A stretch of 64,000 nt of DNA from Pseudobdellovibrionaceae bacterium (GCA_050251555.1 JBFWMN010000001.1:26806-90805), one strand, 5' to 3'. Counted from the stretch's first letter, positions 10,108 to 26,056 are shown. Numbers and translations are program-made. Notes: generated from the letters alone by a model not told the origin.

Positions 10108-10195
10108 TGGTGCGGCCAAGAAGACTCGAACTTCCACGGGCTCAATGCCCACAGCGACCTCAACGCTGCGCGTCTACCAATTCCGCCATGGCCGC
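10108..10195 (-). tRNA. tRNA-Leu, anticodon GAG
   Basis: The reverse complement folds by hand as GCGGCCA-TG-GCG..CGC-G-CAGCG-TTGAGGT-CGCTG-long variable arm (GGGC ATTGA GCCC)-GGAAG TTCGAGT CTTCT-TGGCCGC-ACCA. It has a 7-bp acceptor stem, encoded CCA, and a class II variable arm. Confidence 0.9.
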
Positions 10196-10364
10196 ACTAT
10201 TTTCTTTCTCTGCGCGGGGTGCAGGTCAGACCTTTCATCAAGGGTGATTCCCGCTCTCGCACATGTGAGATATCAAATCCCGTGACGGCCCGCAACAGCG
10301 TTTCACGTTGCATTGCGGCATCTCGGGTTGCGCCTATAAAGCACACCTGCTAGGAGATTGCAAT

Positions 10365-11021
10365 ATGGAGTATGAATTTTCGCAAAAACCCGTGCCGTAC
10401 GAGGCCGCGCTTGAGCTGATGGAGACCCGCGTGGCACAAATCGGGCAGGGTCTTGCAGACAATCTTTTATGGGCGTTGGAACACCCCCCTGTCTATACGG
10501 CAGGAACGTCTGCCAAAGACTCCGATCTTGTCGATTCCCGTTTTCCGGTAATTAAGACGGGGCGGGGCGGACAATATACGTATCACGGCCCTGGACAGCG
10601 TGTTTATTACGTGATGTATAACTTGAAGGAAATCTTCCAAACGCCTGATATCAAATGCTATGTCTGGATGTTAGAGGAGGTGCTTATCCGCACGCTTGCA
10701 GCTTTCGGAATCACAGGTGAACGCCGTGAAGGCCGTGTAGGAATCTGGGTGGTGGACCCTCAATCAGGTAAAGAAAACAAGATTGCCGCCCTCGGCGTGC
10801 GCGTTCGGAAGTGGGTCGCTTTTCATGGTGTGTCTTTGAATGTCGATCCTGATTTGTCCCATTTTACAGGGATTGTCCCGTGCGGCATTCATGAGCATGG
10901 TGTTACATCCATGGCGGCTTTGGGTATTAAACCCGCGCAAGATGAAATTGACCGTGTTTTTGCACGGGAACTGGAGGCGGTTCTGGCGAAGCCTCAATCG
11001 GCGGCTTGTGCCAAGTCATAG
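10365..11021 (+). CDS. lipB: Octanoyltransferase (lipoyl(octanoyl) transferase)
   Basis: Track ORF 10308..11021, with the start moved to MEYEF (ATG 10365). Motifs EHPPVYT, RGGQYTYHGPGQ, KIAALGVRV and CG. Confidence 0.85.
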   Translation: MEYEFSQKPVPYEAALELMETRVAQIGQGLADNLLWALEHPPVYTAGTSAKDSDLVDSRFPVIKTGRGGQYTYHGPGQRVYYVMYNLKEIFQTPDIKCYVWMLEEVLIRTLAAFGITGERREGRVGIWVVDPQSGKENKIAALGVRVRKWVAFHGVSLNVDPDLSHFTGIVPCGIHEHGVTSMAALGIKPAQDEIDRVFARELEAVLAKPQSAACAKS

Positions 11022-11875
11022 GATTTAATCTCGGCAATAACCTCACCCGTTAAATCCTGTAAATCCTGCCGCAATTTTTCGAATGCGGCGGGCTTTTTCA
11101 CGAGTTTCTTTTCGTCCATATAAAGAGCGCGGTTGATCTCAAGCTGGAGTGAGTGAAAACCCACTTGCGGGCGACCATATTTTTTAAGGATTTCAGCGCC
11201 CTTGTAAGGATTGTTGATACCGACCCTATAGCCGCGTTTCATCAGAAAATGGGTGATGAAGTGGGTAAAACCTTGTTCGCAACTTGTGCCGTTCCGATCG
11301 CCAATGACGAAATCAGGCAGGTTTTGAAAGCTTTGTTTGGAGGGCATGGAGTGACAATTGATATGCCAAACCTGCCCGAAGCGCGTCACAAGTTCCTCAA
11401 GGCGCGTATTGAGTGCGCCGTGATACGGGTCGTAATAGTCTTCCAGTCGCTGCTTGATGGTCGCAGGCGGCAGGCGCATCCCGTATATATCCGACCCGTC
11501 ATGACCACGGCGATAAATGACGCCATGTCCGACATCGGCGCGGCCTTTTTTATCAATCGGGCCTTCCCAGATTCCGTCCAGCAGCTTTAGATCAATGTCA
11601 TCGCGTGAGCGGTTCACATCAATGAATGTGCGTGGGAAGAGGGCGGACAGAAGTGTGCCGCCTTGTGAGGGAACATGGGCGTAGAGTTCGTCGACAAACA
11701 GATCGGCATAACGCATCAAATCGTCTTTGTCGCAACGATAATCGAAGCTTTCAGGGAAATCCGTTCCCGAATGGGGAGAGTCGCACACAAAAGGGACGGA
11801 AAAATCATCTTCCGGCTTGTCAAGGCTATAAACCCGCTTTACGGATGGGGTCACTCTCATTACCATCCTTTCCAT
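10994..11875 (-). CDS. N-formylglutamate amidohydrolase family protein
   Basis: 293 aa. Motifs SPHSGTDFP and [10 protein letters not shown] are typical of the FGase family (PF05013-like, by recognition). It overlaps the lipB 3' end by 28 nt in convergent orientation. Confidence 0.65.
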
Positions 11876-11928
11876 TAGGCCCGTTTTTTGAACGCAATCA
11901 CAAGAGTTTTTTGAAATTAAAGAGACCC

Positions 11929-13206
11929 ATGCACGATATTAAAGCCCTCCGCGAGACTCCTGAAAAATATGATGCCAACTGGGCGCGCCGCGGTTTGTCT
12001 CCGCAAACGCCCGAGCTTCTGGCTTTGGATAAAGAGCGCCGTGCGGCGCAAACCGAGTTGCAAGCCATGCAGCAGGCGCGCGGTGAAAAATCCAAAGAGA
12101 TCGGCATGATCAAAAGTAAGGGCGGCAATGCTGACGCGCTGATGGCGGAAGTGGCAGCGCTGAAAGAGCAGATGAGCGCTTTGGAAGAAAAAGAGCGCGA
12201 ACTCGGCGAAGCCTTGGATATGAAGCTGGCCTCCATTCCCAATTTGCTGGCTGACGATACGCCCGACGGAAAATCGGAAAGCGATAATGTCGAAGTCGGC
12301 TCATATGGCACGCCGAAAAACCCGAATGCGGATGTGCCTGACCACCAGACAATCGGTGAAGCTCTGGGGCTGATGGATTTTGAAGCGGCAGCAAAAATAT
12401 CGGGCGCACGCTTTGTGTTCCTCAAAGGCGCATTGGCCCGTATGGAGCGTGCCTTGGCGCAATTCATGCTGGATACGCAAACAGGTGAAAACGGTTACAC
12501 GGAGGTGTCGCCGCCGCTTTTGGTGCGCGACAATGCGCTTTACGGGACAGGGCAGCTTCCCAAATTTGCCGAAGATCTGTTTAAGACCACCACAGACCAT
12601 TGGCTCATCCCCACTGCCGAAGTGTCGCTGACCAATATGGTCTATGACGAAATTCTGGATGTTGCCAGTCTGCCGCGCCGTTATACGGCTTTTACCCCGT
12701 GTTTCCGTTCTGAGGCGGGGTCAGCAGGGCGCGACACCAGAGGCATGATCCGCCAACATCAATTTTATAAGGTTGAACTCGTCTCTATCACATTGCCTGA
12801 CCAATCCGAGGCCGAGCATGAGCGCATGACAAAATCCGCCGAAAGCATCCTTGAAAAACTCGAGCTGCCTTACCGCCGCATGGCTTTGTGCGCAGGCGAT
12901 ATCGGCTTTGGTGCGATGAAAACCTATGATCTGGAAGTCTGGGTCCCGTCGCAAAAGACCTACCGCGAAATCTCATCTTGTTCCAATTGCGGAGATTTTC
13001 AGGCGCGCCGTATGAATGCGCGTACCAAAATTGATGGTGAGAAGGGCACAAGCTTCGTTCACACGTTGAATGGTTCGGGACTGGCTGTCGGACGTACGCT
13101 TGTCGCCGTCATTGAAAATTACTACGACCCTGCCGATGGCAGCATTTTCGTGCCCAAAGCCCTGCAACCTTATATGGGCGGCCTGACCAAGATTACAAAA
13201 GTTTAA
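11929..13206 (+). CDS. serS: Seryl-tRNA synthetase
   Basis: Track ORF 11626..13206, with the start moved to MHDIKALRE (ATG 11929). It has an N-terminal coiled coil, class II motif 2 ([21 protein letters not shown]) and motif 3 ([17 protein letters not shown]). Confidence 0.93.
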
Positions 13207-13214
13207 ACGCCAAC

Positions 13215-13901
13215 ATGAACGAACTCGACACACGTAAAATTCGCCTGATTATGCAGCTCCGAAGCCTCGGCATTCAGGATACTGCCGTGCTGTCGGCAAT
13301 CGAGACGACGCCGCGTGAATTGTTCGTGCCGCAAGCCATTCGCCATCAGGCTTATGAAGATAAAGCTCTGCCGATCGGTCTGGAACAAACCATCTCCCAG
13401 CCCTATATCGTGGCATTGATGACGCAAGCTTTGGAGCTCAATGATCGCCATAAAGTCCTCGAAGTTGGAACGGGGTCCGGCTATCAGGCGGCAATTTTGG
13501 CCAAGCTCTGCCGTCGTGTCTATACGGTGGAGCGTCACCGCCCGCTCTTGGAAGTGGCTGAGCAGCGCTTTGATCAATTGAAACTGAGAAACATTACGGC
13601 ACTGGCTGCTGACGGGATGAAAGGCTGGCCCGAGCAAGCCCCCTTTGACCGTATGATTTTGACCGCTGCAGCCTTTAACGAGCCACCCCAAGCTCTTCTG
13701 GACCAGATGGCGGACGGCGGCATTATGGTTGCACCCGTGACCCGCGCCGATAAAGTCCAGATGCTGCGCCGTTACCGTAAGGAAAGCGCCGATACGTTCG
13801 CCATCAAGGATTTGTGCGAGGTGCGTTTCGTGCCGCTATTGCCCGATGTTGTGGCGCGTACCGTCTATACGGACGGAGATTTGCGCGAGGTGAAGGCATG
13901 A
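13215..13901 (+). CDS. pcm: Protein-L-isoaspartate O-methyltransferase
   Basis: 228 aa. Motifs ISQPYIVALM and the SAM motif VLEVGTGSGYQAAILA. Confidence 0.9.
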   Translation: MNELDTRKIRLIMQLRSLGIQDTAVLSAIETTPRELFVPQAIRHQAYEDKALPIGLEQTISQPYIVALMTQALELNDRHKVLEVGTGSGYQAAILAKLCRRVYTVERHRPLLEVAEQRFDQLKLRNITALAADGMKGWPEQAPFDRMILTAAAFNEPPQALLDQMADGGIMVAPVTRADKVQMLRRYRKESADTFAIKDLCEVRFVPLLPDVVARTVYTDGDLREVKA

Positions 13902-14962
13902 GAGGTTTGAAAACGCTTCTGGTACTGTCACTGGCTGTTTTGCCGACAGCGTGTGCGAGTGAGAACAACGCCAATGTCCCTGTCTATTATTACGGGCAAG
14001 GGAAGGGGGCAGGCTCTACCGGTGCGCATGTCGCGATGATGGGCGATACGGTGGACACCATTGCGGCGCGCTATAATGTACCGCGCCTTGATTTGATCGA
14101 GCTCAATCATTTGGAACAGCCCTATACGCTGTTTGTCGGGCAGCGTTTACTGTTGCCCGCGCCGCGTACCTATACGGTCGGGCAGGATGACTCGGTGGCC
14201 TCCATCGCCAAAACATTCGGGACAAGCCCCGAAGAGTTGGCGCGTTTGAATAATCTGCAAGCGCCGTTTCGCCTGACATTGGGGCAAAAACTGGAAATTC
14301 CGGCACTTTCGGGCGCGGCAAACGATTCCGCCTCCATGGCTTATCTGACCCTTGAGCCACCCGTTCCCAAAGTTGAAGGTGCGGCGCTTGAGCCTTTGAA
14401 TACCTTCCCGCCAGCGATGGACACGCCGCCGCAAGGGCAACCCCTTCCTGCCGAGACACCGCCACCAACGCAGACAGCGTCCTTGCCGCAACCTGCCGTG
14501 CCTCAAGCCGTACCACCACCCCAAGCGCCACCCAAACCTGCGGGGCAGGCGATTGATGTCTCCAAAATTAAAGTCCCTGCAAGAGGGGGTGCCAAAATGG
14601 TGCGGCCCGTACAGGGGAATATTGCCTCCAGCTTCGGCCCGAAAGCCGATACGTTACAAAATGACGGCATCAATATTGTCGCGGTACGCGGGGCACCTGT
14701 CCGCGCTGCCGAAAACGGTGTTGTCATCTATGCGGGTGAGGATCTCGCCAGCTATGGCAAGCTGACCCTCGTGAAACATGAGGGCGGTCTGGTGACAGCC
14801 TATGCGCATCAGGACAAGTTTCTGGTGACAAAGGGCCAAGTGGTCAATCGCGGGCAGACCATCGGTACGGTGGGCTCAAGCGGGAATGTCCAGACCCCGC
14901 AACTTCATTTTGAAGTCCGTAAAGGCTCCAAGCCCGTTAATCCGACCGCTTATCTTGAGTAA
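13898..14962 (+). CDS. nlpD: LysM-LysM-dLytM (degenerate M23) lipoprotein, NlpD type
   Basis: Track ORF 13814..14962, with the start moved to ATG 13898, which overlaps the pcm stop (ATGA). It has a lipoprotein-like signal (...LAVLPTAC), two LysM repeats, a Pro-rich linker and a C-terminal M23 domain. In that domain HxxxD reads NDGIN and HxH reads QLH. This is the non-catalytic NlpD/EnvC-type pattern (E. coli NlpD, as I recall it: NKGID / RLH). Confidence 0.88.
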   Translation: MRGLKTLLVLSLAVLPTACASENNANVPVYYYGQGKGAGSTGAHVAMMGDTVDTIAARYNVPRLDLIELNHLEQPYTLFVGQRLLLPAPRTYTVGQDDSVASIAKTFGTSPEELARLNNLQAPFRLTLGQKLEIPALSGAANDSASMAYLTLEPPVPKVEGAALEPLNTFPPAMDTPPQGQPLPAETPPPTQTASLPQPAVPQAVPPPQAPPKPAGQAIDVSKIKVPARGGAKMVRPVQGNIASSFGPKADTLQNDGINIVAVRGAPVRAAENGVVIYAGEDLASYGKLTLVKHEGGLVTAYAHQDKFLVTKGQVVNRGQTIGTVGSSGNVQTPQLHFEVRKGSKPVNPTAYLE

Positions 14963-15090
14963 AACGAAGCCCTATACGTTGCCTTTTTCATGCAATGGCA
15001 TGATAAAGGTTTTTATAGGCACACGTGTTTCTGGCTCTTTCGCATAACTTTAGAAAATGTGACTTTGCAATAATTGACTCTTCAGAATTT
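14553..15090. repeat. Direct repeat copy 1: nlpD 3' end, terminator and downstream promoter region
   Basis: Hand alignment to 16266..16797. About 94 percent identical in the coding part, and 54/56 identical over the last 56 nt. Confidence 0.9.
14982..15014 (+). terminator. Rho-independent terminator of nlpD
   Basis: CCTTTTTCATGC-AATG-GCATGATAAAGG (12-bp stem, one mismatch) followed by TTTTTA, 20 nt after the nlpD stop. Confidence 0.6.
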
Positions 15091-15100
15091 GCGCTATAAG
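15074..15100 (+). promoter_or_regulatory. Candidate sigma70-type promoter for the 15138 gene
   Basis: TTGACT (15074-15079) and TATAAG (15095-15100), with a 15-16 nt spacer that is suboptimal. The -35 part lies inside a block conserved between both repeat copies. Confidence 0.25.
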
Positions 15101-15137
15101 TGTAAAGAAATCTTATACGCGCAGGGAAAAAATAAAA

Positions 15138-15905
15138 ATGCTTAACAGAGGCAATCGGTTAGCAAAGGCTTGGGGGTTTTTCAGGCTTTTTTTATTGTGT
15201 GTCTTGGCAGTATGTATCTTACCAACGCCGTCCAGTGCGATGGAATGTCTCCGCCGCCCCCCTTTAAGTGAGGCAATCAAAAACTCAGATGTCATCGTTA
15301 AAGTATTTGTAGATCATCAAAAATCCAAATCTCCTCTCGTTGTAGAACGTATCTACAAAGATAATTCAAAAAGTTTGAAAGAAGGCCAGAGAGTTTCTGC
15401 ATCAGAAGCCGGCGCACTTTTTTCAGGTTTTAACTATGAAGATGGAGAAGAATGGTTCATCTATGGGAACAAAACTGAGCGCGCATTTATCAAAAACGCC
15501 TGTGGACCAAGCTTTCTCACACCTGATTATTTGATCCATCATTTTGGGGAAACGTCTAAAACAGAATATTACCTCAAAAATGGCTATCTTGTTTTTACTG
15601 GAAAACTTTTAGATACAAGTGACGATCAGTTCCAGTTCCGAATAGAGAAGCTTCTTGGCGGTGGATACGAAAAAGCTGAAATTTCAATAATATTTAAAGA
15701 CCCAAAATGTTCTAAAAACTTTGAAAAAGACAAAGAATACTTTGTTATAGCCGGATCAAATAATATACCTACAGCTCCAAAATTTCTGGGTCAATGTACC
15801 AATTATTCACCTTATCCAACTGATTTAGAAAAAACTTTAAATGGCTTAAACCCTAGGAGTTCATTATGGCATTCACTGTCCCAACAAATTATGAAGTTCT
15901 TTTAA
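15138..15905 (+). CDS. Secreted hypothetical protein with two tandem TIMP/NTR-like modules (putative metalloprotease inhibitor; function is inferred)
   Basis: 255 aa with a signal-peptide-like N-terminus (...CILPTPSSA/MEC). It is a paralog of 16844..17680. C-LRRPPLSEAIKNSDVIVKV and KCSKNFEKDKEYFVIAG resemble the TIMP N-domain. It lies directly 5' of a serralysin-like ORF. Confidence 0.7.
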   Translation: MLNRGNRLAKAWGFFRLFLLCVLAVCILPTPSSAMECLRRPPLSEAIKNSDVIVKVFVDHQKSKSPLVVERIYKDNSKSLKEGQRVSASEAGALFSGFNYEDGEEWFIYGNKTERAFIKNACGPSFLTPDYLIHHFGETSKTEYYLKNGYLVFTGKLLDTSDDQFQFRIEKLLGGGYEKAEISIIFKDPKCSKNFEKDKEYFVIAGSNNIPTAPKFLGQCTNYSPYPTDLEKTLNGLNPRSSLWHSLSQQIMKFF

Positions 15906-16676
15906 CGTGGAACACGCCTGTAGACAATCCCAACTCTCTAGAAGATGAGTTTTTCAATTCCATTGGTGCCGTAGAGCCTTGGTCATGGACAGGATATTCC
16001 GGTACTAGTGCCACCATCAATTATAGCCTGCTAGCGGCAAACTCTTTTTTTGCAGGATCATCAATCCCATTTACCCCTACTTCCTCTACAGACTTACCTG
16101 CAACTGTGATTGCAATTCAACCTATCTTAAATTTGATAAAGAATGTCGCAAATGTAAGTTTTATAAATGATGATACAAATCCTGATTTTGTCATATCTAC
16201 TGTAAATACAACTTCCTACGCCGGTTTAGCAGTACCCTCAATAACAAACCAAGATGTATCTGTAGTTGATGTTTCCAAAATTAAAGTCCCTGCAAGGGGG
16301 GGGCGCAAAAATGGTGCGCCCCGTTCAGGGCAATATTGCCTCCGGCTTCGGGCCGAAAGCCGATACGTTACAAAATGACGGCATCAATATTGTCGCCGTG
16401 CGCGGGGCACCTGTCCGTGCTGCCGAAAACGGTGTTGTCATCTATGCGGGTGAGGATCTCGCCAGCTATGGCAAGTTGATCCTCGTGAAACATGAAGGCG
16501 GGCTGGTGACAGCCTACGCGCATCAGGATAAGTTTCTGGTGACAAAGGGTCAAGTGGTCAATCGCGGGCAGACCATCGGTACGGTGGGTTCAAGCGGGAA
16601 TGTCCAGACCCCGCAACTCCATTTTGAAGTCCGCAAAGGCTCCAAACCCGTTAATCCGACGACCTATCTTGAGTAA
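15866..16676 (+). pseudogene. Chimeric ORF: serralysin-like N-terminal fragment (about 133 codons) joined to a second copy of the nlpD dLytM domain, interrupted by a net +1 frameshift
   Basis: ORF 15866..16378 has AGGAG 6 nt upstream of its ATG. Its first 133 aa parallel the N-terminus of the 17715 protein (W-WTG, ILNLIKNVANVSF versus VLKLISNVANINF) but end before any HEXXH. From 16266 it enters the nlpD copy in frame (VDVSKIKVPARGG), then loses the frame at 16296-16311. The dLytM reading frame continues as track ORF 16266..16676. Confidence 0.75.
16296..16311 (+). other. G8 and A5 homopolymer tracts containing the net +1 nt relative to nlpD
   Basis: nlpD has GCAAGAGGGGGTGCCAAAATGG (24 nt through ATGGTG). 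The copy has GCAAGGGGGGGGCGCAAAAATGG (25 nt). Confidence 0.85.
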
Positions 16677-16688
16677 GAAGTGGCGTTG

Positions 16689-16724
16689 CCCTTTTCATGC
16701 AATGGCATGATAAAGTTTTATTTA
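16689..16724 (+). terminator. Copy of the nlpD terminator hairpin
   Basis: CTTTTCATGC-AATG-GCATGATAAAG followed by TTTTATTT. It is the same palindrome TCATGCAATGGCATGA seen in copy 1. Confidence 0.5.
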
Positions 16725-16843
16725 GTCACGCGTATTTCTGCCTCTTTCGCATAACTTTAGAAAATGTGACTTTGCAGTCATTGACTCTTCAGAATTTCAC
16801 CTTTAAGGCTAGAAATCCATACATACACGGGGGAACATTTCTT

Positions 16844-17680
16844 ATGCTCAAAAGAGCCAAAAGCATCTTCAAAAAATCGTCTCGCAAATCTTATGTATTG
16901 GCCTTGTTTATCGCGGTGCTATTAGTGGTGCTGTATAGCGGAATAAATATGTCTTCTGCTGACCGAGATCCGGATGCGCCGGGGTTTGACGGTCGCACTT
17001 CATTAGAATGGGCTCATGAACATTCAAGCTTAATCTTTTTAGGACGAATTCTGAGCGAGAAGCATCCATACGATGTTGAGGTTCTTGAAGTATTCAAGGA
17101 CTCAAAGAACAGGCTAGAAGGCAAGAAACATGTTCTGATTGAGCATGTTCTGTCGATGGGCGAATACTACCTTGGCGCACATAAAGATGAAGTACTCATC
17201 ATTTTTGCCGGATACGATGAAAAGAACAAAGCCATACGCGTTTCGGAGAGATCGCGCACGCAATATCCACCCCAATATTTTGTTAAACATATCCAAAATG
17301 CCAAGGGGCGTTGGGAAGGATGGAGCGACACTGAAAAATATACAGTCTTTGTCGGTACGGTCGATAAGATCATAAAATCCGAGGACAGGAAAGATACAGC
17401 AATCCTCTTCAAAGATGTTTCTCTTGTTTCAGGCTCGCTTGAAGGAGAGTCAACGGATCACTTGAACGTAAGCTTTCAATACGACGCGCGCTGTGCAGAT
17501 TTATACAAGGAAAAAAATCGATATGTTGTCTTTGTAAAGAAACAATACAAAACACTAGATACACGGGAAAACGGGAAGGAAAAACGCGTATTTCAAAAAT
17601 TCAACAGTACTTATTGCGCTTTATATCAACCATATGACTTTGACATCTTAGAAAAACTGCGTAATTGGAAAGTTAAATAA
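16844..17680 (+). CDS. Membrane-anchored or exported hypothetical protein, paralog of 15138..15905 (tandem TIMP/NTR-like pattern; putative metalloprotease inhibitor)
   Basis: Track ORF 16697..17680. The upstream 49 codons are the repeat/promoter region, so I start at ATG 16844 (MLKRAKSIFKK..., GGGGGA 9 nt upstream). It has an N-terminal hydrophobic anchor, YVLALFIAVLLVVLY. It lies 34 nt upstream of the RTX protease gene. Confidence 0.7.
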   Translation: MLKRAKSIFKKSSRKSYVLALFIAVLLVVLYSGINMSSADRDPDAPGFDGRTSLEWAHEHSSLIFLGRILSEKHPYDVEVLEVFKDSKNRLEGKKHVLIEHVLSMGEYYLGAHKDEVLIIFAGYDEKNKAIRVSERSRTQYPPQYFVKHIQNAKGRWEGWSDTEKYTVFVGTVDKIIKSEDRKDTAILFKDVSLVSGSLEGESTDHLNVSFQYDARCADLYKEKNRYVVFVKKQYKTLDTRENGKEKRVFQKFNSTYCALYQPYDFDILEKLRNWKVK

Positions 17681-17714
17681 AAAAATATCAAATTTTGCAC
17701 GTGGGGTAGCAGAT

Positions 17715-20700
17715 ATGACTTGGACAATTAATCCTGATGATCTCGACGATAATGTTGAAAAACTTTTTGTATGGCCTGAGTATGGGTTGTTTTCGTGGAC
17801 AGGTCAGCTTGGTGCTACAGCAAATGTAACTTTTACGCTTAATCCCAGTTCCCTCCACCCCGGCTCATCAGGCCAACCCACATCTTCTGTTTCTTGGGGG
17901 GATGCAGGTCAAACAGCGGCGTTTGCAGATGACATATCAGATGTTTTGAAATTGATCTCGAATGTAGCAAATATCAACTTCACATACTCTACATCTGCTT
18001 CAGTCAACGATATAGCTTTTGCTCTTGCGGATAAAGATACGTTTATATACACAGACACTGAAGACAATGAATATCCCATAGCAGGTCACGCATATACCCC
18101 AACCCCTTATTCCAACCAAACGACGGGGTATGCAGATATATATTTTTCTGATTATTATGATGATTTTAGTGTAGGCTCTAGAGGCAGCTCAACCTTGCTT
18201 CATGAGGTTTTACACGCCTTAGGAATAAGCCACCCTAACGGTGTTCCTGATGATGACGATTTCAACAAAATAAGCACGGTCATGAGCGATGTGCCCTCCG
18301 GTATAGCTGATCCCAACTTGGTAACAGATGAATTTCGTTCCGATAACAGTTACGCGCCAGCTACCCTTATGCCCTATGATATTGCGGCGCTGCAATATTT
18401 GTATGGTGTCAACAACACATATAATGCAAATGATAATGTCTACATATTCCATCAAAACGGAACGATTTCTATTTCAAATCCTCAAAATTCTGAAGCAACA
18501 ATTGTCGGTAATCTGGTTGCAATTTGGGATGCTGGTGGTGACAATGATGAATATAAGCTGGATGCCACTATAATAGCGGACTCAAGAATAGATTTGAGAG
18601 CAGGCGCTGTTGCAGAAGAGGATCAGTATTATAAAGATCACACGAATATGAAGGTTTATGCTTCTCATATTGCATTCTCCGATGGAACCTCTCTTACGGT
18701 GGCTAATTCACTACCCGTGAGTGGCGTTGACCCACTCATTGAAAATGCAACGGGAGCACAAGGCAAAGACACTATCATTGGAAATGATAAGGCAAACATC
18801 CTTAAAGGTGAGGGTGGGGGCGATACCCTTGTTGGTGGTGCTGGCGTAGATACTTTATTCGGTGGAGCAGGTAACGATACGTTTATAGCTCATGTTGGGG
18901 TTTCAGGTCTTGACGGTGATTCCTATTATGGAGGTGACGAAAATTCTAGGGGGGAAGCTGATGGCATTGATACGGTTGATTATAGTGCAATAGACTCTGA
19001 TGCCTATGGCATAGCCAAAGTAAATATAGGTACAGGCGAGGACGTTGTCTGGTTTTACAAAAAAGATTTTTTATCGGATGGCAGCCTTGTATTTGGAGCA
19101 AAAGATTATCTCTACTCGATTGAAAATATTGTTTTTGGCGGAGATGTTATTTCTCTGGTAAATGGAACAGATGGAAATGACACACTGAATGATACAGATT
19201 ACTATATTTTAGAGATTCTATACGGTGGGCTGGGTGACGATGACATAAGCTTAGGCTACAATGATATCGCAGATGGTGGGGATGATAATGATACTTTCCA
19301 TACTTCCTTAGATTCATTAGCTGTATCTGGATATGGCGAAGCACAAATTCTTGGCGGGTCAGGGACCGACACTTTGGATTTGGTTATTGATAGCTCTTAC
19401 AGTACCTCAAATGCAGCTAAGTCAGAAAACGTATTTATTTCAAAAAGCCAAGGTGTGATCTCTGTCAGTGGTGCTTACACTTTAGTGCAAGCAAAAGACG
19501 TGGAAACCATCACTTTTACTGCAAGCGATACCAGATACAAGTCTCCGTTGTTACTGGCTAATCAGTTTGGCAGCGGCAATCTAAACTACGGAGATATCAC
19601 GAGCGGCACCATCAACGGTTTCACGGGGTTAAACCGTCTGGATTACTCATCTTCGTCCAGCGGAATGACGTATTCATCTACCCTGTCCGGATCTCACACT
19701 ATACTGACAAACAGCCTGTCTCAATCGGCTGTCAATGTAACAGAACTGTATGGCACCAACAAAGGTGACTACATCACTTTGCAAGACAGTACAAACACTC
19801 GCGTGTATCTGGGAACGGGTGATGACACGCTGATTTTAAATAATGCAAGTACATCTTATGGGTATGTCGTCGGGTACAGCGGTGGCGATGATCTTATCCA
19901 GTCCACCGGCTATTCTTACGGGGCAAGTCTTATTATTCAAGTCGATAAAAATATCACACTTTCGGACTTAGTTAGTATTACGCCAGAGTCAGGCGTTAAT
20001 TATAACGACCCGTTTGAAGTCGTTTTTGATTTCGGCAGCAAAGGTTCTCTGACCATCTCTGCATTTACAAAGAACTCGACCTTATCCATTAACGATCCAG
20101 CTAATGACAGAGAAGCCTACCTTAAATTCAATTACGGATACAACAACACTACTGAACTATACGACCCATTTCTAACCACCTCATATACAGCCTATTCCAC
20201 TTCAAAAGAGTTTACATTCAGAGGGACGTGGGATGATGACGTCATTCACGGCACATCTGCAAGAGACTCAATTTGGGCTCTTGGTGGTAACGATACCGTT
20301 TATGGTAGCGACAATGACGATTACATCTATGGCGGCGATGGCAATGATATCCTAGTCGGCGAAGAAGGAACCGACCATATTTATGGTGGTGCGGGAGGTG
20401 ACACAATCTACGCTGAAGATCAGAGCACAACACCAACGACAATTTCTTTTAACTGGCTATACGCAGGTGATGGTGATGACACTGTTTACGGCAGTCAGGG
20501 AGGCGATTATGTGGAAGGTGGTAATGGCGATGATGTCATATATGTCTTCGGCGGCTCTAATACAGTCTACGCTGGTAACGGCAATGATATTCTTCAAGGC
20601 GCTTTTAATGAAGTTTATGGCGGCGACGGTGATGATACCATCACAGCAGAGGGCAGCTCTTATTATGTTAACGGTGATTCTGGCAACGACATCATTCACA

Positions 20701-22652
20701 TTGTAGGCACTGCAGCATATGTCTATGGCGGCGACGGTGATGATGTCATATATGGGGCGGTCGATAATGAGGACTCCCGCATATATGGGGATGATGGGAA
20801 TGATATCATCTTTGGTCGCGGAGGAAATGACACCCTGTATGGTGGTAATGGGGATGATTTCTTGTATTCAAACACGGATAGCTCATTTGCATCTGACGCT
20901 GGGGATTTTGTTCTTCTATACGGAGAAGATGGCAATGACTTTATTCAAGGTGCAGATGGCGCTGATTATGCCTCCGGTGGCGCAGGTAGTGATATTCTCA
21001 AAGGCGGCAATGGCGGAGACACCCTATCAGGTGACGATGGAGACGATCAGCTATTTGGGGAAGATGGAAATGATAACATAAGCGGCGACGAGGGAGATGA
21101 TCTCTTATACGGCGGAGCAGGTAATGACACACTTGAAGGCGGTTTGGGTTACGACATTCTGATTGGTGGGGCTGGGAATGACACCTTATATGGCGGAAAT
21201 AGTGCAGCCATATGGAATAGTAACTTATTCGTTTTTGAGAGTGGCTTTGGTCATGATACTGTCGATGACTTTGTTACCTCGCTTGATAAGATTGATCTGA
21301 CCGATTTTTCATCAATTTCAGATGTATCGCAATTGGATATTTATGTCTTCACCAACTCTTATGGATCGACAACGACGATTACCATAAGCGCGACGGAAAT
21401 TATCACTTTGTCGCATGAGCTGCGCTACGATAACATCTACACTCTAACAAACGATAATTTCATTTTTGCGCATCCGAGTACTGACTACGGTAACTCCAGC
21501 GATGACCTATTGATGGGCACATCGGGTGCCGATACACTCGATGGTCGTGCTGGGAATGATACTTTGGAGGGCCTTGGCGGGAATGACATTCTCACGGGTG
21601 GGGTAGGTTCTGACGTCTTTATCTACTCGGGTAGCTTTGGTAATGACACCATAACGGACTTCGAACTCAATATTGATAAGATTGATCTTTCTCAGATACA
21701 AGCCGTTGCCGGCTATAGCAACCTGATACTCTCTCAAGTTGGGTCTGATACTTTAATTAGCTTCTCAGGAACTTCAGACTCGATCCTTTTGGAGGGTATT
21801 AATAGATACAGTTTAAACAGTTCTCAGTTTAAATTCGGTACTTACGGCACTTCTGGCAATGATTATATCGAAGGCACGTCTGGTGATGACTCAATCTTTG
21901 GCCTTGGGGGCAGCGATGAAATCTATGGCCTTGGTGGAAATGACCGCGTTGAAGGTGGTGACCAGAATGACTGGGTTTACGGAGGCACTGGCAATGACAT
22001 TGTGAAAGGCAATGCCGGAAATGATGTTGTTGCAGGTGATGATGGAAATGACACCCTCTATGGGGGCATCGGACAAGATTACCTCTGGGGTAATAAAGGT
22101 AATGACACGCTCTATGGTGAAGCGGATATTGATGCTCTCAGAGGCATGGAAGGTGATGACATTCTATACGGTGGAGAGGGGAACGACAATTTGCGCGGCG
22201 ATGATGTTGACTCTCTTTCCAACTTTGCGGGTGCCGGTAACGACATCCTGTATGGCGGCGCGGGCAATGATAACCTCGAAGGCGGGGCAGGCGACGATAT
22301 CCTTGTCGGCGGCACTGGTGCAGATATTATGAACGGAAGCGCAGGTTCGGATACGTTCTACTATGAAGCTGCGGATATTGATGGTTCACGGGATGCAATA
22401 TATGGTTTTCAGGCTGGTATAGGTGGGGACATCATCGATATATCCGATGTTCTGCAATATGACAGCGCAACGGATAATCTGTCAGACTTCGTATTTCTTG
22501 TTCAAGGTGGCAGCTACACACGGATCAATATTGACATTGATGGTACGGGTACAAATTACAGTTCTCAGTCACTGGCACAACTTCAGGGCGTGACGGGCCT
22601 TAATCTTACTGACATGGTCAATAGCGGTAATCTGGTTGTTGAGGCGGCCTAA
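17715..22652 (+). CDS. Giant serralysin-family (M10B) zinc metalloprotease with multiple RTX Ca-binding repeat blocks and a type I secretion C-terminal domain
   Basis: 1645 aa. Metzincin motif HEVLHALGISHP with the Met-turn candidate STVMSD. Serralysin-type motifs LMPYDIAALQYLYGVN and AIWDAGGDNDEY. There are dozens of GGxGxDxUx nonapeptides in four blocks. The C-terminal GDIIDISDVL...FVFLV...TRINIDIDGTG...LAQLQGV...LVVEAA resembles the VC_A0849-type T1SS target domain. Confidence 0.9.
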   Translation: MTWTINPDDLDDNVEKLFVWPEYGLFSWTGQLGATANVTFTLNPSSLHPGSSGQPTSSVSWGDAGQTAAFADDISDVLKLISNVANINFTYSTSASVNDIAFALADKDTFIYTDTEDNEYPIAGHAYTPTPYSNQTTGYADIYFSDYYDDFSVGSRGSSTLLHEVLHALGISHPNGVPDDDDFNKISTVMSDVPSGIADPNLVTDEFRSDNSYAPATLMPYDIAALQYLYGVNNTYNANDNVYIFHQNGTISISNPQNSEATIVGNLVAIWDAGGDNDEYKLDATIIADSRIDLRAGAVAEEDQYYKDHTNMKVYASHIAFSDGTSLTVANSLPVSGVDPLIENATGAQGKDTIIGNDKANILKGEGGGDTLVGGAGVDTLFGGAGNDTFIAHVGVSGLDGDSYYGGDENSRGEADGIDTVDYSAIDSDAYGIAKVNIGTGEDVVWFYKKDFLSDGSLVFGAKDYLYSIENIVFGGDVISLVNGTDGNDTLNDTDYYILEILYGGLGDDDISLGYNDIADGGDDNDTFHTSLDSLAVSGYGEAQILGGSGTDTLDLVIDSSYSTSNAAKSENVFISKSQGVISVSGAYTLVQAKDVETITFTASDTRYKSPLLLANQFGSGNLNYGDITSGTINGFTGLNRLDYSSSSSGMTYSSTLSGSHTILTNSLSQSAVNVTELYGTNKGDYITLQDSTNTRVYLGTGDDTLILNNASTSYGYVVGYSGGDDLIQSTGYSYGASLIIQVDKNITLSDLVSITPESGVNYNDPFEVVFDFGSKGSLTISAFTKNSTLSINDPANDREAYLKFNYGYNNTTELYDPFLTTSYTAYSTSKEFTFRGTWDDDVIHGTSARDSIWALGGNDTVYGSDNDDYIYGGDGNDILVGEEGTDHIYGGAGGDTIYAEDQSTTPTTISFNWLYAGDGDDTVYGSQGGDYVEGGNGDDVIYVFGGSNTVYAGNGNDILQGAFNEVYGGDGDDTITAEGSSYYVNGDSGNDIIHIVGTAAYVYGGDGDDVIYGAVDNEDSRIYGDDGNDIIFGRGGNDTLYGGNGDDFLYSNTDSSFASDAGDFVLLYGEDGNDFIQGADGADYASGGAGSDILKGGNGGDTLSGDDGDDQLFGEDGNDNISGDEGDDLLYGGAGNDTLEGGLGYDILIGGAGNDTLYGGNSAAIWNSNLFVFESGFGHDTVDDFVTSLDKIDLTDFSSISDVSQLDIYVFTNSYGSTTTITISATEIITLSHELRYDNIYTLTNDNFIFAHPSTDYGNSSDDLLMGTSGADTLDGRAGNDTLEGLGGNDILTGGVGSDVFIYSGSFGNDTITDFELNIDKIDLSQIQAVAGYSNLILSQVGSDTLISFSGTSDSILLEGINRYSLNSSQFKFGTYGTSGNDYIEGTSGDDSIFGLGGSDEIYGLGGNDRVEGGDQNDWVYGGTGNDIVKGNAGNDVVAGDDGNDTLYGGIGQDYLWGNKGNDTLYGEADIDALRGMEGDDILYGGEGNDNLRGDDVDSLSNFAGAGNDILYGGAGNDNLEGGAGDDILVGGTGADIMNGSAGSDTFYYEAADIDGSRDAIYGFQAGIGGDIIDISDVLQYDSATDNLSDFVFLVQGGSYTRINIDIDGTGTNYSSQSLAQLQGVTGLNLTDMVNSGNLVVEAA
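18201..18236 (+). other. Zinc-binding active-site motif HEVLHALGISHP (HEXXHXXGXXH)
   Basis: Read from the DNA: cat gag gtt tta cac gcc tta gga ata agc cac cct, in frame with 17715 (residue 163). Confidence 0.9.
20251..21200 (+). repeat. Main RTX nonapeptide repeat block (coding)
   Basis: Runs from GGNDTVYGSDNDDYIYGGDGNDILVGEEGTDHIYGGAGGDTIY to GGAGNDTLYGG. Smaller blocks lie at about 18748-18893 and about 21500-21640. Confidence 0.85.
21845..22362 (+). repeat. C-terminal RTX nonapeptide repeat block (coding)
   Basis: Runs from GTSGNDYIEGTSGDDSIFGLGGSDEIYGLGGNDRVEGG to GGTGADIMNGSAGSDTFYY. Confidence 0.85.
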
Positions 22653-22699
22653 AGACATAACTCCCTTCTTTGCAATGTTATCCCCCGTGATTGGCTGGC

Positions 22700-22723
22700 G
22701 GGGCAGGCTGCCCCCTTGTATTT
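22700..22723 (+). terminator. Weak candidate terminator after the RTX gene
   Basis: GGGGCA-GGC-TGCCCC followed by CTTGTATTT. The stem is short and the loop only 3 nt. Confidence 0.3.
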
Positions 22724-22794
22724 GCAAGGGAACGGGCTATAGTCGCCTGCAATGAATTCTGACACGTATAATTGATAAGGAAGACGATAAAGAG

Positions 22795-23154
22795 ATGTTT
22801 ATTTCCAAAGCCTTGGCTCAAACCGCAGAAGTGATCGAGGAAACAGCCGCAACGCCCGATGCCCCGAATGCCATGGAGGCCTTCATCATGAATATGGGCC
22901 TGATCGCTATTCTCGTTGTCCTGTTCTATGTCCTGATGATCCGCCCGCAGCAACGCCGCATGAAGGAACACCAGAAAATGCTGGGCGGTCTTGAAAAAGG
23001 CTCGACCATTGTCACGCAAGGCGGTGTAATCGGAAAAATCGAAAAGGTGCTGGATGACAATTCTCTGCTGATCAAATCCGGTAACACGGAAATGACAATC
23101 CTGCGCTCGGCGATCATGTCGACATTGGACGAAGCGACACCATCGAAAAAGTAA
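22795..23154 (+). CDS. yajC: Preprotein translocase subunit YajC
   Basis: 119 aa with a single TM, then MIRPQQRRMKEHQKML and GGVIGKI. Confidence 0.88.
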   Translation: MFISKALAQTAEVIEETAATPDAPNAMEAFIMNMGLIAILVVLFYVLMIRPQQRRMKEHQKMLGGLEKGSTIVTQGGVIGKIEKVLDDNSLLIKSGNTEMTILRSAIMSTLDEATPSKK

Positions 23155-23167
23155 GAAGTCTCACTCA

Positions 23168-24712
23168 ATGATCCATTTCTCCCGCTGGAAAACCATCCTG
23201 ATTTTGGGCCTGACTGCTCTGGCCTTCATTTTCGCGTTTCCCAATATCCTGCCTCAAGACACACGCGACCAAATGGCGGAAACCATGCCTGCTTGGGTTC
23301 CGACCTCTTCGGTTAATCTGGGGCTGGATCTGCAAGGTGGTTCGCACCTTCTTTTGCAGGTGGATATCGAGAGTGTGATCAAGGAACAATTGCAGGATAT
23401 GGTCGCACAGGTGCGTTCATCTTTGCGCGAAGATCATATCCGCTTTACCCGTCTGACACCTGACGGGAACGGTTTTGTCCTTACCCTTCAACAGGCAGGT
23501 GACATGGATGCCGCGAAAAAGGCCATCCGAGACCTCAGCACCGACTATTTTATTGATGAGACGGGTGAAACATCACTCAAAGCCAGTTTCTCGGATGCAG
23601 GGCTGCGTAAACTGAGAGAGGATACGGTATCGCAATCTATCGAGATTGTCCGTCGCCGTATTGATGAAACGGGCACGAATGAGCCTGTTATTACCAAGCA
23701 AGGCGATGACCGTATTGTTGTTCAGCTTCCGGGGCTTGGTTCTCCTGCACGTATTAAAGAGCTTTTGGGTAAAACCGCGAAGCTGACCTTCCACCTTGTC
23801 GATATGGATGGCGGTGTTGATACGACATCGTTGCCGATGCGTGAAAATCCCGAGCAGAAAATCTCGATCAAGCGTCGTCCCTCTATTACGGGTGAAATGC
23901 TGACCAATGCGGCGGCAACCTTCCAGCAAGGCCAGCCTGTTGTATCCTTTCGCCTGAACGGCACGGGAGCCAAACGCTTTTGTAAATTGACACGTGAGCA
24001 TACGAACGAGCCGTTTGCGATTGTTCTGGATGAGCAGGTTGTGTCTGCCCCCAATATCAATGAGCCGATTTGTGGCGGTCAGGCGATCATTTCAGGTCGC
24101 TTTACGGTTCAGGAAACAGCCGATACCGCACTTTTGTTACGCGCAGGGGCTTTGCCCGCACCTTTGAAAATTATCGAGGAACGCACTGTCGGGCCGACAT
24201 TGGGGCGTGACTCGGTTGAAGCAGGAAAAATCGCGGGGCTTGTGGCCTTAGGCGTGGTTCTTGTCTTCATGTTTCTGTCCTATGGACTGTTCGGCTTTTT
24301 TGCCGCGGTTGCCCTGGTTGTGAACATGATCATGATTTTTGCGATCCTCTCCATGCTGGGCGCGACCCTGACATTGCCGGGGATCGGCGGGATTATCCTG
24401 ACCATCGGTATGGCGGTGGATGCCAACGTGCTGATTTTCGAGCGTATCCGCGAAGAAATGCGTGAAGGCCGCACGGTTCTTTCTGCCATTGATGCGGGTT
24501 ACAAAAATGCGATGAGCACGATTGTGGATGCCAACATCACGACCCTGATTGCCGCAGTGTTCCTGTATTCCTTTGGTTCGGGGCCTGTGCGCGGGTTTGC
24601 CGTGACCCTGACAATCGGTATTGTGACCTCGATGTTCTCTGCCATTTGGCTGACACGTCTGATGGTTGCGACTTGGCTTGGCAAAAAACGCCCCTCAGAG
24701 CTTCATATTTAA
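23168..24712 (+). CDS. secD: Protein translocase subunit SecD
   Basis: 514 aa with a large periplasmic loop. Motifs LGLDLQGG and GMAVDANVLIFERIREE. Confidence 0.93.
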   Translation: MIHFSRWKTILILGLTALAFIFAFPNILPQDTRDQMAETMPAWVPTSSVNLGLDLQGGSHLLLQVDIESVIKEQLQDMVAQVRSSLREDHIRFTRLTPDGNGFVLTLQQAGDMDAAKKAIRDLSTDYFIDETGETSLKASFSDAGLRKLREDTVSQSIEIVRRRIDETGTNEPVITKQGDDRIVVQLPGLGSPARIKELLGKTAKLTFHLVDMDGGVDTTSLPMRENPEQKISIKRRPSITGEMLTNAAATFQQGQPVVSFRLNGTGAKRFCKLTREHTNEPFAIVLDEQVVSAPNINEPICGGQAIISGRFTVQETADTALLLRAGALPAPLKIIEERTVGPTLGRDSVEAGKIAGLVALGVVLVFMFLSYGLFGFFAAVALVVNMIMIFAILSMLGATLTLPGIGGIILTIGMAVDANVLIFERIREEMREGRTVLSAIDAGYKNAMSTIVDANITTLIAAVFLYSFGSGPVRGFAVTLTIGIVTSMFSAIWLTRLMVATWLGKKRPSELHI

Positions 24713-24726
24713 GAGAGTTGAACAAG

Positions 24727-25653: not shown

Positions 25654-25669
25654 GGTCAAGGACTCAATT

Positions 25670-26041: not shown

Positions 26042-26056
26042 GCTTAAGCCTGAGCT

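What the first reader, a model, noticed from the sequence alone, without database searches (positions are those of the whole stretch)
14553..16797. 0.54-kb direct repeat of the nlpD 3' end brackets the first cassette, and its coding part differs from resident nlpD almost only at synonymous sites
Seen in sequence: 14553..15090 and 16266..16797 are direct repeats covering the last 136 or so codons of nlpD, its terminator hairpin and the downstream promoter region.

I hand-aligned the 122 codons from ATGGTG to TAA (14597..14962 versus 16311..16676). There are 22 nucleotide differences: 18 synonymous codon changes and only 3 amino-acid changes (S>G, T>I, A>T).

The genes between and after the repeats (15138 versus 16844, and 15866 versus 17715) are far more diverged than the repeat itself.

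Inference: the second dLytM copy accumulated its differences while under purifying selection as a protein. It is therefore not a decaying in-situ duplicate. There are two readings:
- It is a xenologous nlpD 3' end imported from a related lineage together with the 16844-17715 cassette. This would have required homologous DNA on one side and an illegitimate junction inside the resident protease gene on the other.
- It is still expressed.

The resulting layout is a displaced orphan inhibitor-like gene plus a protease 5' stub in front of an incoming intact cassette. This resembles the orphan modules of polymorphic toxin/immunity loci.
Basis: partly seen in the sequence, partly recalled or inferred. 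Interest (0 to 1): 0.7.

Follow-up and report, generated by a model that had tools for sequence, protein, structure and literature searches.

The report
Recombination scar beside a protease cassette
A second, truncated copy of the end of the cell-wall gene nlpD sits 1.7 kb downstream of the real gene, and its differences show it evolved as a working gene in a related lineage before being stranded here, an ordinary but clear scar of gene-cassette exchange between strains.

Summary
Window 14553-15112 and 16266-16817 are the only long repeat in the window (90% identity over 561 nt). Over the 121 shared sense codons there are 22 differences: 18 synonymous codons and 3 replacements. NG86 dN/dS is 0.045; GY94 omega is 0.052 (p=3e-9 against omega=1; p=1e-5 against 0.5, the value expected if one copy drifted neutrally).

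Differences are evenly spread, with no conversion tracts. Both copies carry derived changes relative to the nearest relative (NlpD 77% identical). The adjacent gene pairs are only 19-29% identical.

Copy B lacks the lipoprotein signal and LysM domains. It is joined in frame, behind at most 7 nt of microhomology, to a serralysin-like protease stub cut about 22 residues before HEXXH. A G8 run then breaks the frame.

Best reading: one illegitimate join between DNA of two lineages, of the homology-facilitated kind. It left an orphan upstream gene, a protease stub and an nlpD fragment. Which cassette arrived cannot be decided.

"Inhibitor-like" and "toxin/immunity" are unsupported by any family or structure match. 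The source is a MAG, so read-level confirmation is needed (SRR27751818).

The parts
13898..14962 (+). Resident full-length nlpD (354 aa): lipoprotein signal, two LysM domains and a C-terminal degenerate LytM (M23) domain. This is copy A of the duplicated 3' end.
   Evidence: Pfam finds LysM x2 (1.3e-22) and Peptidase_M23 (1.6e-29). The 354-aa product is in NCBI as MGE4312676. serS-pcm-nlpD-yajC-secD synteny is shared with relatives. The lipobox LPTAC and the degenerate motifs NDGINI / QLHFE are read directly from the translation.
14553..15112 (+). Repeat copy A: the last 136 codons of nlpD plus 150 nt downstream (hairpin and putative promoter).
   Evidence: Self-BLAST 90.2% over 561 columns; alignment A1; identity by segment.
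14963..15112 (+). Left end of the island, copy A: hairpin followed by a U run (about 14980-15015), and TTGACT-N15-TATAAG (about 15074-15100).
   Evidence: The fold gives -21.8 kcal/mol, z=-4.5. The sequence was read directly. This stretch is not homologous to the nlpD-yajC spacer of the closest relative L005. The promoter was not reported by the consensus scan.
15138..15905 (+). Cassette-A upstream gene ('inhA', 255 aa): an N-terminal hydrophobic signal/anchor, no known family; the retained orphan.
   Evidence: Intact ORF. It is in NCBI as hypothetical protein AB7E85_00215, and there is no other homologue among 5.8 billion proteins. No Pfam or PDB match. Weak collinear match to the inhB family.
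15866..16265 (+). 5' stub (133 codons) of a serralysin-like protease gene (prtA'), cut about 22 residues before the HEXXH zinc site.
   Evidence: 29% identical to the prtB N-terminus, E=1e-5. 42% identical to P0125 and P0126. The alignment places the break at the conserved 'AD(IY)'. There are no stop codons in the 133 codons.
16266..16817 (+). Repeat copy B: a xenologous nlpD 3' fragment (16266-16676) plus the island left end (16677-16817). It is fused in frame to the stub at 16265|16266.
16296..16303 (+). G8 run that shifts the stub/nlpD reading frame by +1. A G7 run would give an in-frame stub::dLytM fusion.
   Evidence: Sequence read directly. The stub ORF reads VDVSKIKVPARGG and then goes out of frame. 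This is the only G or C run of 8 or more in the 64 kb.
16311..16676 (+). 121-aa ORF covering only the dLytM domain of copy B. It is annotated in the source record as 'murein hydrolase activator EnvC' and is probably a pseudogene fragment.
   Evidence: Pfam M23 4.3e-31; exact match to MGE4312678; no signal peptide or LysM domain.
16844..17680 (+). Cassette-B upstream gene ('inhB', 278 aa), with an N-terminal hydrophobic anchor and no known family.
   Evidence: Homologues P0123 (68%) and P0124 (83%) lie in other contexts without a protease. No Pfam match.
17715..22652 (+). Intact cassette-B protease prtB (1645 aa): serralysin-type catalytic domain (HEVLHALGISH) plus a long RTX repeat region; a type I secretion substrate.
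   Evidence: PDB sequence hits to alkaline protease and serralysin, E=6e-10. Pfam HemolysinCabind 2e-96 and a weak Peptidase_M10 match. The NCBI name is 'type I secretion C-terminal target domain-containing protein'.
22678..22794 (+). Ancestral nlpD-yajC spacer. It marks the right edge of the 7.7-kb low-GC island (14963-22677).
   Evidence: It aligns with the 120-nt spacer that directly follows the nlpD stop in L005. GC is 38-46% inside the island against about 51% outside.
22795..23154 (+). yajC, the conserved right flank.

Best explanation
This is the scar of a single recombination event between two related lineages of a Micavibrio-like alphaproteobacterium. It is not a working system.

Background (shown):
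- In this lineage a 7.7-kb low-GC island sits directly after the nlpD stop codon.
- The island consists of a 150-nt leader (hairpin plus putative promoter), a gene for a signal-bearing protein of unknown family, and a serralysin-like RTX protease gene.

Inference about the two lineages: lineages A and B share nlpD and the leader, with a synonymous divergence of about 0.25, but carry very different cassettes.

The event (inferred):
- A DNA end from one lineage was joined illegitimately to DNA of the other, at roughly TTGAT(GT).
- The join links codon 133 of protease A to a point 136 codons before the end of nlpD-B.
- The other side was presumably resolved by homology (homology-facilitated illegitimate recombination).

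The product, in order:
- intact nlpD-A
- leader A
- orphan gene inhA
- a catalytically dead protease stub fused to a stranded nlpD-B fragment
- leader B
- inhB
- intact prtB

Current state of the fragment:
- Shown: it has no export signal, and its frame is broken by one extra G.
- Inferred: it has been neutral only briefly, at most about 0.03 substitutions per site.

Unresolved: whether cassette B came in from the yajC side, or cassette A came in from the nlpD side.
For: 1. Purifying selection on copy B.
- Omega is 0.045-0.052. Omega=1 is rejected at p=3e-9 and omega=0.5 at p=1e-5.
- P(3 or fewer replacements among 22 changes) is 9e-6 if copy B were neutral and copy A fully constrained.

2. 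Both copies carry derived states relative to outgroup L005: 11 A-derived, 7 B-derived and 4 ambiguous. This fits two independently evolving functional genes.

3. No conversion tracts. The longest identical run is 58 nt; permutation P=0.40.

4. A/B differences sit 8 nt and 30-41 nt from the junction. Against L005, the state at 8 nt is B-derived, and at 38 and 41 nt copy B keeps the ancestral base where copy A is derived. The junction therefore joins A-type to B-type DNA directly. A prior duplication followed by homologous allele replacement would need a crossover inside fewer than 30 nt.

5. The left boundary is sharp. The stub breaks at the conserved AD(IY), about 22 residues before HEXXH.

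6. The cassettes are 19-29% identical against 97.5% for the dLytM fragment.

7. The event looks recent. The stub has no stop codons in 133 codons, the only disabling lesion in the fragment is the G8 frameshift, and there are at most 3 replacements.

8. The closest relative has nlpD directly followed by yajC, and the ancestral spacer survives at 22678-22794.

9. The same process has been proposed for V. cholerae T6SS effector/immunity arrays (PMC5361080).
Against: - No genome or contig of a B-type (or any close) lineage was found. The nearest NlpD is 77% identical, and the 90% cluster of the dLytM fragment holds only the two copies from this MAG. The donor is therefore inferred, and A and B are each other's closest known relatives.
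- The homologous crossover on the far side cannot be seen.
- The incoming fragment carried 0.55 kb of 90%-identical homology that was not used for a clean swap.
- The source is a MAG, and the junction has not been checked in reads. The Logan assembly of the same run breaks inside the repeat, at window 14668.
- The in-frame junction at a domain boundary could hint at a once-selected fusion protein.
Confidence: 0.6

Rival explanations
1. Old in-situ tandem duplication of the 1713-nt unit (nlpD 3' end, leader, upstream gene, protease 5' end). The cassette genes then diverged extremely fast, or one cassette was replaced. The nlpD/leader part stayed similar because the stub::dLytM fusion (or the 121-aa ORF) was expressed and selected, or because of gene conversion from nlpD.
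For: - A single tandem duplication gives exactly this topology, including the junction.
- The junction is in frame and falls in the linker just before the complete dLytM domain. G7 instead of G8 would restore a 269-aa fusion.
- An AAGGGGGG stretch 7 nt upstream of ATG 16311 could act as a ribosome-binding site.
- A and B are each other's closest known relatives.
Against: - The cassette genes are 19-29% identical while synonymous sites of the repeat differ by only 0.25.
- There are no conversion tracts.
- Neutral drift of copy B after a conversion is rejected: p=1e-5 (omega=0.5), and only 2 of the 7 B-derived changes are replacements.
- The product would lack a signal peptide and a type I secretion signal, so a dLytM domain could not reach periplasmic amidases (established NlpD biology).
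- The frame is currently broken.
- The non-coding leader is conserved to a similar degree, which selection on the protein cannot explain.
Confidence: 0.13
2. Assembly chimera. Two co-existing strains, one with cassette A and one with cassette B, were merged into one MAG contig, so the duplication does not exist in any one cell.
For: - The source is a MAG.
- The Logan contig from SRR27751818 that matches window 10161-14668 at 100% stops inside the repeat, where A and B share a 44-nt identical run. This shows a branch in the read graph.
- The complete inhA and inhB products are recorded only from the NCBI contig, not from Logan.
Against: - The join 16265|16266 links protease codon 133 to an internal nlpD codon with at most 7 nt of shared sequence. 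A k-mer graph cannot jump there; a strain chimera would switch inside the shared repeat and would not create a stub::nlpD junction.
- A true duplication produces the same graph branch.
- The junction is in frame and sits at a microhomology, as real illegitimate joins do.
Confidence: 0.12
3. The locus is a genuine polymorphic effector/immunity site. The upstream genes are cognate inhibitors of the RTX proteases, and inhA is kept by selection as an orphan immunity gene against A-type proteases of kin.
For: - inhA is an intact ORF with an export signal and its own copy of the leader.
- Its position upstream of a serralysin-like protease recalls the inhibitor genes linked to serralysin genes (PMC4070987; own knowledge).
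- Recombination between the 0.55-kb direct repeats would delete inhA, yet it is present.
- The layout mirrors V. cholerae orphan immunity arrays (PMC5361080).
Against: - There is no match to the Inh family or any other family, and no usable structure model.
- inhB homologues in L008 and L009 have no adjacent protease.
- No population data exist.
- If the event is recent, the intact state of inhA needs no selection.
Confidence: 0.12

Closest known systems
Homology-facilitated illegitimate recombination (Acinetobacter, S. pneumoniae, P. stutzeri; de Vries & Wackernagel 2002, Prudhomme 2002 and Meier & Wackernagel 2003, as cited in PMC5361080)
   Same: Diverged DNA is joined to resident DNA at a short microhomology, with part of a resident gene lost. 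The other side is presumably resolved through conserved flanking genes.
   Different: The anchor crossover is not observable here. The incoming end also carried 0.55 kb of 90% homology that went unused, so a direct repeat was created. Direction and uptake route are unknown. This is a natural case inferred from one MAG, not an experiment.
Orphan immunity-gene arrays from sequential displacement of T6SS effector/immunity modules in Vibrio cholerae (PMC5361080); C-terminal displacement in Rhs/CDI loci
   Same: A new module enters next to a conserved segment. The old effector gene is truncated or lost while its partner gene survives as an orphan. The conserved segment ends up repeated.
   Different: - The order is mirrored here: the partner gene and a 5' stub are kept upstream.
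- The repeated conserved segment is the 3' end of a housekeeping gene (nlpD) plus a leader, not part of the effector gene.
- The effector is a type I-secreted serralysin-like protease.
- Toxin/immunity function is unproven, and there is one orphan rather than an array.
Serralysin (M10B) protease genes with a linked periplasmic inhibitor gene (Pseudomonas AprA/AprI, Dickeya/Serratia Inh; PMC4070987; own knowledge)
   Same: prtB has the HEXXHXXGXXH site, similarity to the serralysin fold, and RTX repeats. A small exported protein is encoded next to it.
   Different: - The upstream proteins are 255-278 aa, against roughly 100 aa for Inh (own knowledge).
- They match no Inh profile.
- Their homologues also occur away from proteases.
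- No type I secretion genes lie in the window.
- prtB is 1645 aa.
E. coli NlpD/EnvC degenerate-LytM amidase activators
   Same: Copy A has a lipoprotein signal, LysM domains and an M23 domain with degenerate zinc ligands. Copy B is 97.5% identical over that domain.
   Different: Copy B is only the domain, without export signal or LysM domains. Its annotation as 'EnvC' in the source record is an over-call on a gene fragment.

Membership tests
Product of homology-facilitated illegitimate recombination | The segment next to the junction comes from a diverged lineage rather than being a local copy. | tested here: met
   dS=0.25 with omega=0.05. Neutral drift of copy B is rejected. Both copies carry derived changes relative to L005. 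A/B differences lie within 8-41 nt of the junction, and there A has derived states that B lacks. The donor itself was not found.
Product of homology-facilitated illegitimate recombination | An illegitimate junction at a few nucleotides of microhomology. | tested here: inconclusive
   The boundary at 16265|16266 is sharp. The shared TTGATGT, and the alignment of the stub's 'VD' with the conserved 'AD' of homologues, suggest 5-7 nt of microhomology.
Product of homology-facilitated illegitimate recombination | A homologous crossover (anchor) on the opposite side. | not testable with these tools
   No A-type or B-type reference genome is available; the nearest relative is 77% identical in NlpD.
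Simple in-situ tandem duplication | All parts of the duplicated unit are diverged to a similar degree. | tested here: not met
   The nlpD part is 94% identical in nucleotides and 97.5% in amino acids, and the leader 85-88%. The upstream genes are 19-22% and the protease 5' ends 29% identical in amino acids.
Polymorphic toxin/immunity locus with orphan modules | The adjacent small gene encodes a specific inhibitor or immunity protein of the effector. | tested here: inconclusive
   No Pfam hit at E<=10, no PDB sequence match, and AlphaFold pLDDT of 45 and 36. Homologues of inhB occur without a protease.
Polymorphic toxin/immunity locus with orphan modules | Alternative cassettes occupy the same site in different strains. 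| not testable with these tools
   Only this genome carries the island. L005 has nlpD directly followed by yajC. More distant relatives carry a DUF815 gene there.
Serralysin (MEROPS M10B) RTX protease | An HEXXHXXGXXH zinc site in a serralysin-type catalytic domain, followed by RTX nonapeptide repeats. | tested here: met
   For prtB, HEVLHALGISH is visible; PDB alkaline protease and serralysin hits reach E=6e-10; 21 HemolysinCabind stretches score 2e-96. The stub lacks the site.
Inh/AprI serralysin inhibitor family | Sequence membership of the Inh family profile. | tested here: not met
   The Pfam scan of inhA, inhB and P0123 at E<=10 returned nothing.
NlpD-type dLytM amidase activator (functional gene) | An export/lipoprotein signal and LysM domains in front of the dLytM domain. 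| tested here: not met
   This row concerns copy B. Only the M23 domain is present, with no signal and no LysM domain, and the frame from upstream is broken. Copy A meets all of these features.

The most novel reading that the evidence does not exclude
In this uncultured predator-like lineage, the site between nlpD and yajC is a cassette-exchange locus for type I-secreted proteases and their cognate protective proteins. The nlpD 3' end plus the 150-nt leader would act as a portable homology arm. Displaced partner genes such as inhA would be kept as orphan immunity against the proteases of competing kin. This would be a type I-secretion counterpart of T6SS/CDI/Rhs orphan arrays.
Probability: 0.1. 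Interest if true: 0.7.

Novelty: new member of a known kind. Interest (0 to 1): 0.35.

Why it matters
- It is a clean natural example of one-sided illegitimate integration of DNA from a sister lineage. The pattern of substitutions alone dates most of the divergence to before the transfer.
- It shows turnover of a secreted-protease cassette in an uncultured relative of predatory Micavibrio. RTX proteins are thought to matter for predation in that group (PMC3189940).
- It flags an annotation trap: the stranded fragment is deposited as an 'EnvC' protein.
- It shows that such repeats break short-read assemblies.
- It does not reveal a new mechanism.

Tried and rejected
1. Placing both copies in a phylogeny of close nlpD orthologues.
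- The GTDB representative scan gave only 32-41% relatives.
- The JGI metagenome scan gave at most 47%.
- The 5.8-billion-protein search gave one 77% relative and then 48% or less.
- Only a three-taxon polarisation was possible.

2. Structure-based test of 'inhibitor-like'. The AlphaFold models had pLDDT 45 and 36, too poor for fold search, so no fold search was run.

3. A lead from memory: the inhA N-terminus (ECLRRPPLSEAIKNSDVIVKVFV) recalls the TIMP N-terminal motif. Neither Pfam at E<=10 nor PDB sequences at E<=10 supported it. I dropped it.

4. Searching for an intact protease-A to map the junction. The best relatives are only 42% identical.

5. Rfam on 13000-23500 at E<=1 returned nothing.

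6. The consensus promoter/terminator scan did not flag the repeated leader.

7. Exact-protein look-ups with a start codon one codon too early (13895 instead of 13898) failed for that reason. The 354-aa product was later found.

8. Duplication followed by homologous allele replacement was rejected. A/B differences begin 8 nt from the junction.


Full report
**Observation**

The window holds one long repeat: 14553-15112 against 16266-16817, 90.2% identical over 561 columns.
- The left edge is abrupt. The 53 nt upstream are 36% identical.
- The right edge fades after about 15100.
- The repeat covers the last 136 codons of nlpD and 150 nt downstream.

- NG86: dS=0.247, dN=0.011, omega=0.045, Fisher p=5e-10.
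- My pairwise GY94/F3x4 likelihood fit: omega=0.052. It rejects omega=1 (LRT 34.9, p=3e-9).
- It also rejects omega=0.5, roughly the value expected if one copy were constrained and the other neutral (p=1e-5).
- With at most 3 replacements in 273 non-synonymous sites, any neutral phase of copy B is shorter than about 0.03 substitutions per site (95% Poisson bound). That is about a tenth of the synonymous divergence.
- Differences are evenly spread. The longest identical run is 58 nt, with permutation P=0.40, so there are no conversion tracts.

**Context**

The neighbourhood is lipB, serS, pcm, nlpD, [island], yajC, secD, secF, among housekeeping genes.
- The source record is an NCBI MAG named 'Pseudobdellovibrionaceae bacterium' (locus tags AB7E85_00215 and _00225; contig of 105 kb).
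- NCBI places Micavibrio in that family. NlpD is 40% identical to that of M. aeruginosavorus. Gene order is alphaproteobacterial.
- The closest available relative is a 4.6-kb Logan contig, L005 (Pcm 96%, NlpD 78%, YajC 86% by tblastn). It has nlpD followed directly by yajC across a 120-nt spacer.
- That spacer aligns with window 22678-22794.
- So 14963-22677 is a 7.7-kb island inserted right after the nlpD stop codon. Its GC is 38-46% against about 51% outside.
- More distant relatives carry a DUF815 ATPase gene in this interval and no protease.

**Anatomy of the island**

- Leader A (14963-15112) has a hairpin with a U run (-21.8 kcal/mol, z=-4.5). It also has a TTGACT-N15-TATAAG stretch that the consensus scan did not call.
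- inhA (15138-15905, 255 aa) has an N-terminal hydrophobic segment and no homologue other than itself.
- The stub (15866-16265) is the first 133 codons of a serralysin-like protease. It is 29% identical to prtB and 42% to P0125/P0126. It breaks at the conserved 'AD(IY)', about 22 residues before HEXXH.
- The stub runs in frame into the nlpD frame of copy B (…VSVVDVSKIKVPARGG). A G8 run at 16296-16303 then shifts the frame. It is the only G or C run of 8 or more in the 64 kb. A G7 run would read ARGGAKMVRP, as in nlpD.
- Then come leader B, inhB (16844-17680) and prtB (17715-22652).
- prtB has HEVLHALGISH, PDB hits to alkaline protease and serralysin at E=6e-10, and 21 RTX stretches.
- No type I secretion genes lie in the window.
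- inhA and inhB are at best remote, collinear homologues.

**What the substitution pattern means**

With L005 as outgroup, 11 differences are derived in copy A (ten synonymous, plus one base of the replaced codon 118). Seven are derived in copy B (5 synonymous, 2 replacements). Four are ambiguous. Both copies therefore evolved away from their common ancestor at similar rates (binomial p=0.48), and mostly at silent sites. This is the signature of two orthologous, functional genes in two lineages.

Copy B cannot function as NlpD where it now sits:
- It has only the M23 domain.
- It has no lipoprotein signal and no LysM domains.
- It has no intact reading frame from upstream.
- A cytoplasmic dLytM domain has no access to periplasmic amidases (established NlpD/EnvC biology).

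The leader is non-coding yet 85-88% identical, which protein-level selection would not explain.

**Mechanism**

A/B differences lie 8 nt and 30-41 nt from the junction.
- Against L005, the base 8 nt in is B-derived.
- At 38 and 41 nt, copy B keeps the ancestral base where copy A is derived.
- So the junction joins A-type protease DNA directly to B-type nlpD DNA.

A local tandem duplication followed by homologous replacement with a B allele would need a crossover within fewer than 30 nt. I therefore favour one inter-lineage illegitimate join at about TTGAT(GT), of the homology-facilitated type, with the other side resolved in conserved flanks.

Three geometries give the same product:
- nlpD-A with cassette A, up to protease codon 133, enters from the pcm/nlpD side and joins inside the resident nlpD-B.
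- A circularised 1.7-kb A fragment integrates by a single crossover in the 0.55-kb homology.

I cannot choose between them, because no close genome exists.

The event looks recent:
- The stub has no stop codons.
- There is one frameshift.
- There are at most three replacements.
- The 0.55-kb direct repeats, with identical runs up to 58 nt, have not yet recombined to delete inhA.

**Rivals**

1. Old in-situ duplication kept by selection on a fusion protein, or by conversion.
   - It fits the topology and the in-frame junction at a domain boundary.
   - It is contradicted by the 19-29% identity of the cassettes, the lack of conversion tracts, the conserved leader, and the lack of any export route.
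2. MAG chimera of two strains.
   - The Logan contig of SRR27751818 that equals window 10161-14668 stops inside the repeat, where A and B share 44 identical bases. The read graph therefore branches there.
   - A true duplication does the same.
   - A k-mer graph cannot create a join with at most 7 shared bases.
   - Only read mapping can settle this.
3. A true effector/immunity locus with inhA as a selected orphan. This is attractive but untested.
   - There is no family or structure match.
   - inhB-like genes in L008 and L009 have no protease beside them. One of them follows a transposase fragment.

**Comparison with known systems**

- The process matches homology-facilitated illegitimate recombination.
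- The outcome matches the displacement model for V. cholerae T6SS effector/immunity arrays and for Rhs/CDI orphan modules (PMC5361080).
- It differs in three ways: it is mirrored, it involves a type I-secreted serralysin-like protease, and the 3' end of a housekeeping gene is the repeated segment.
- RTX proteins are expanded, island-borne and expressed in Micavibrio (PMC3189940). A variable protease cassette is therefore plausible biology for this group.
- Membership in the toxin/immunity class is not shown.

**Verdict**

- The direction of transfer, the inhibitor function and current expression are not supported.
- This is a good example of a known kind of recombination scar in a single MAG, of moderate interest.

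Noticed in passing
window 16296-16303: The G8 run is the longest G or C homopolymer in the 64 kb and sits exactly where the stub/nlpD-B frame breaks. Copy A has AGAGGGGGT and L005 has AGAGGCGGC at this position. One G fewer would give an in-frame 269-aa protease-stub::dLytM fusion. It could be a slippage mutation, a sequencing error, or a variable tract.
   Followed up: partly
window 14963-22677; 22678-22794: The whole interval is a low-GC (38-46%) island inserted immediately after the nlpD stop codon. The ancestral nlpD-yajC spacer is intact at its right edge. The closest relative L005 lacks the island. More distant relatives (L002, L006, L011) have a DUF815 ATPase gene here instead.
   Followed up: yes
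L017 (= window 10161-14668) and L016 (= window 22057-26113): Logan contigs from run SRR27751818 are 100% identical to the window. They end inside the nlpD repeat and inside the RTX repeats of prtB. This identifies the read set to use for checking the junction. The complete inhA and inhB products are not recorded from that Logan assembly.
   Followed up: partly
L009 160-1193; L008 551-1354: Genes 83% and 68% identical to inhB occur elsewhere. One starts mid-gene right after a DDE transposase fragment. The other stands alone between unrelated genes, with a classical cleavable signal peptide. Neither has a protease neighbour.
   Followed up: partly
window 16311-16676: The source record annotates the stranded 121-aa dLytM fragment as 'murein hydrolase activator EnvC' (MGE4312678). 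The protease stub is not annotated. In the protein collection, the fragment is the representative of the 90% cluster that contains the real NlpD, which hid NlpD from the homology search.
   Followed up: yes
window 15866-15905: inhA overlaps the start of the protease stub by 40 nt. It carries about 14 extra C-terminal residues relative to inhB, whose stop lies 34 nt before prtB. This may reflect a lost stop codon in inhA.
   Followed up: no
window 15063-15071 and 22668-22676: The 9-mer CTTTGCAAT, which contains the palindrome TTGCAA, occurs in leader A and again just inside the right edge of the island. Leader B has CTTTGCAGT. There are three copies in the window against 1.3 expected, so the count is not significant. 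The placement might reflect an operator or an insertion-site remnant.
   Followed up: partly
window 15138-15260: The region after the inhA signal peptide (ECLRRPPLSEAIKNSDVIVKVFV) resembles, from memory, the N-terminal motif of TIMP metalloprotease inhibitors. Pfam and PDB sequence searches at E<=10 gave no support.
   Followed up: partly
window 13898-13901: The nlpD start ATG overlaps the pcm stop (ATGA). The longer GTG-initiated ORF from 13814 is not the annotated gene.
   Followed up: yes
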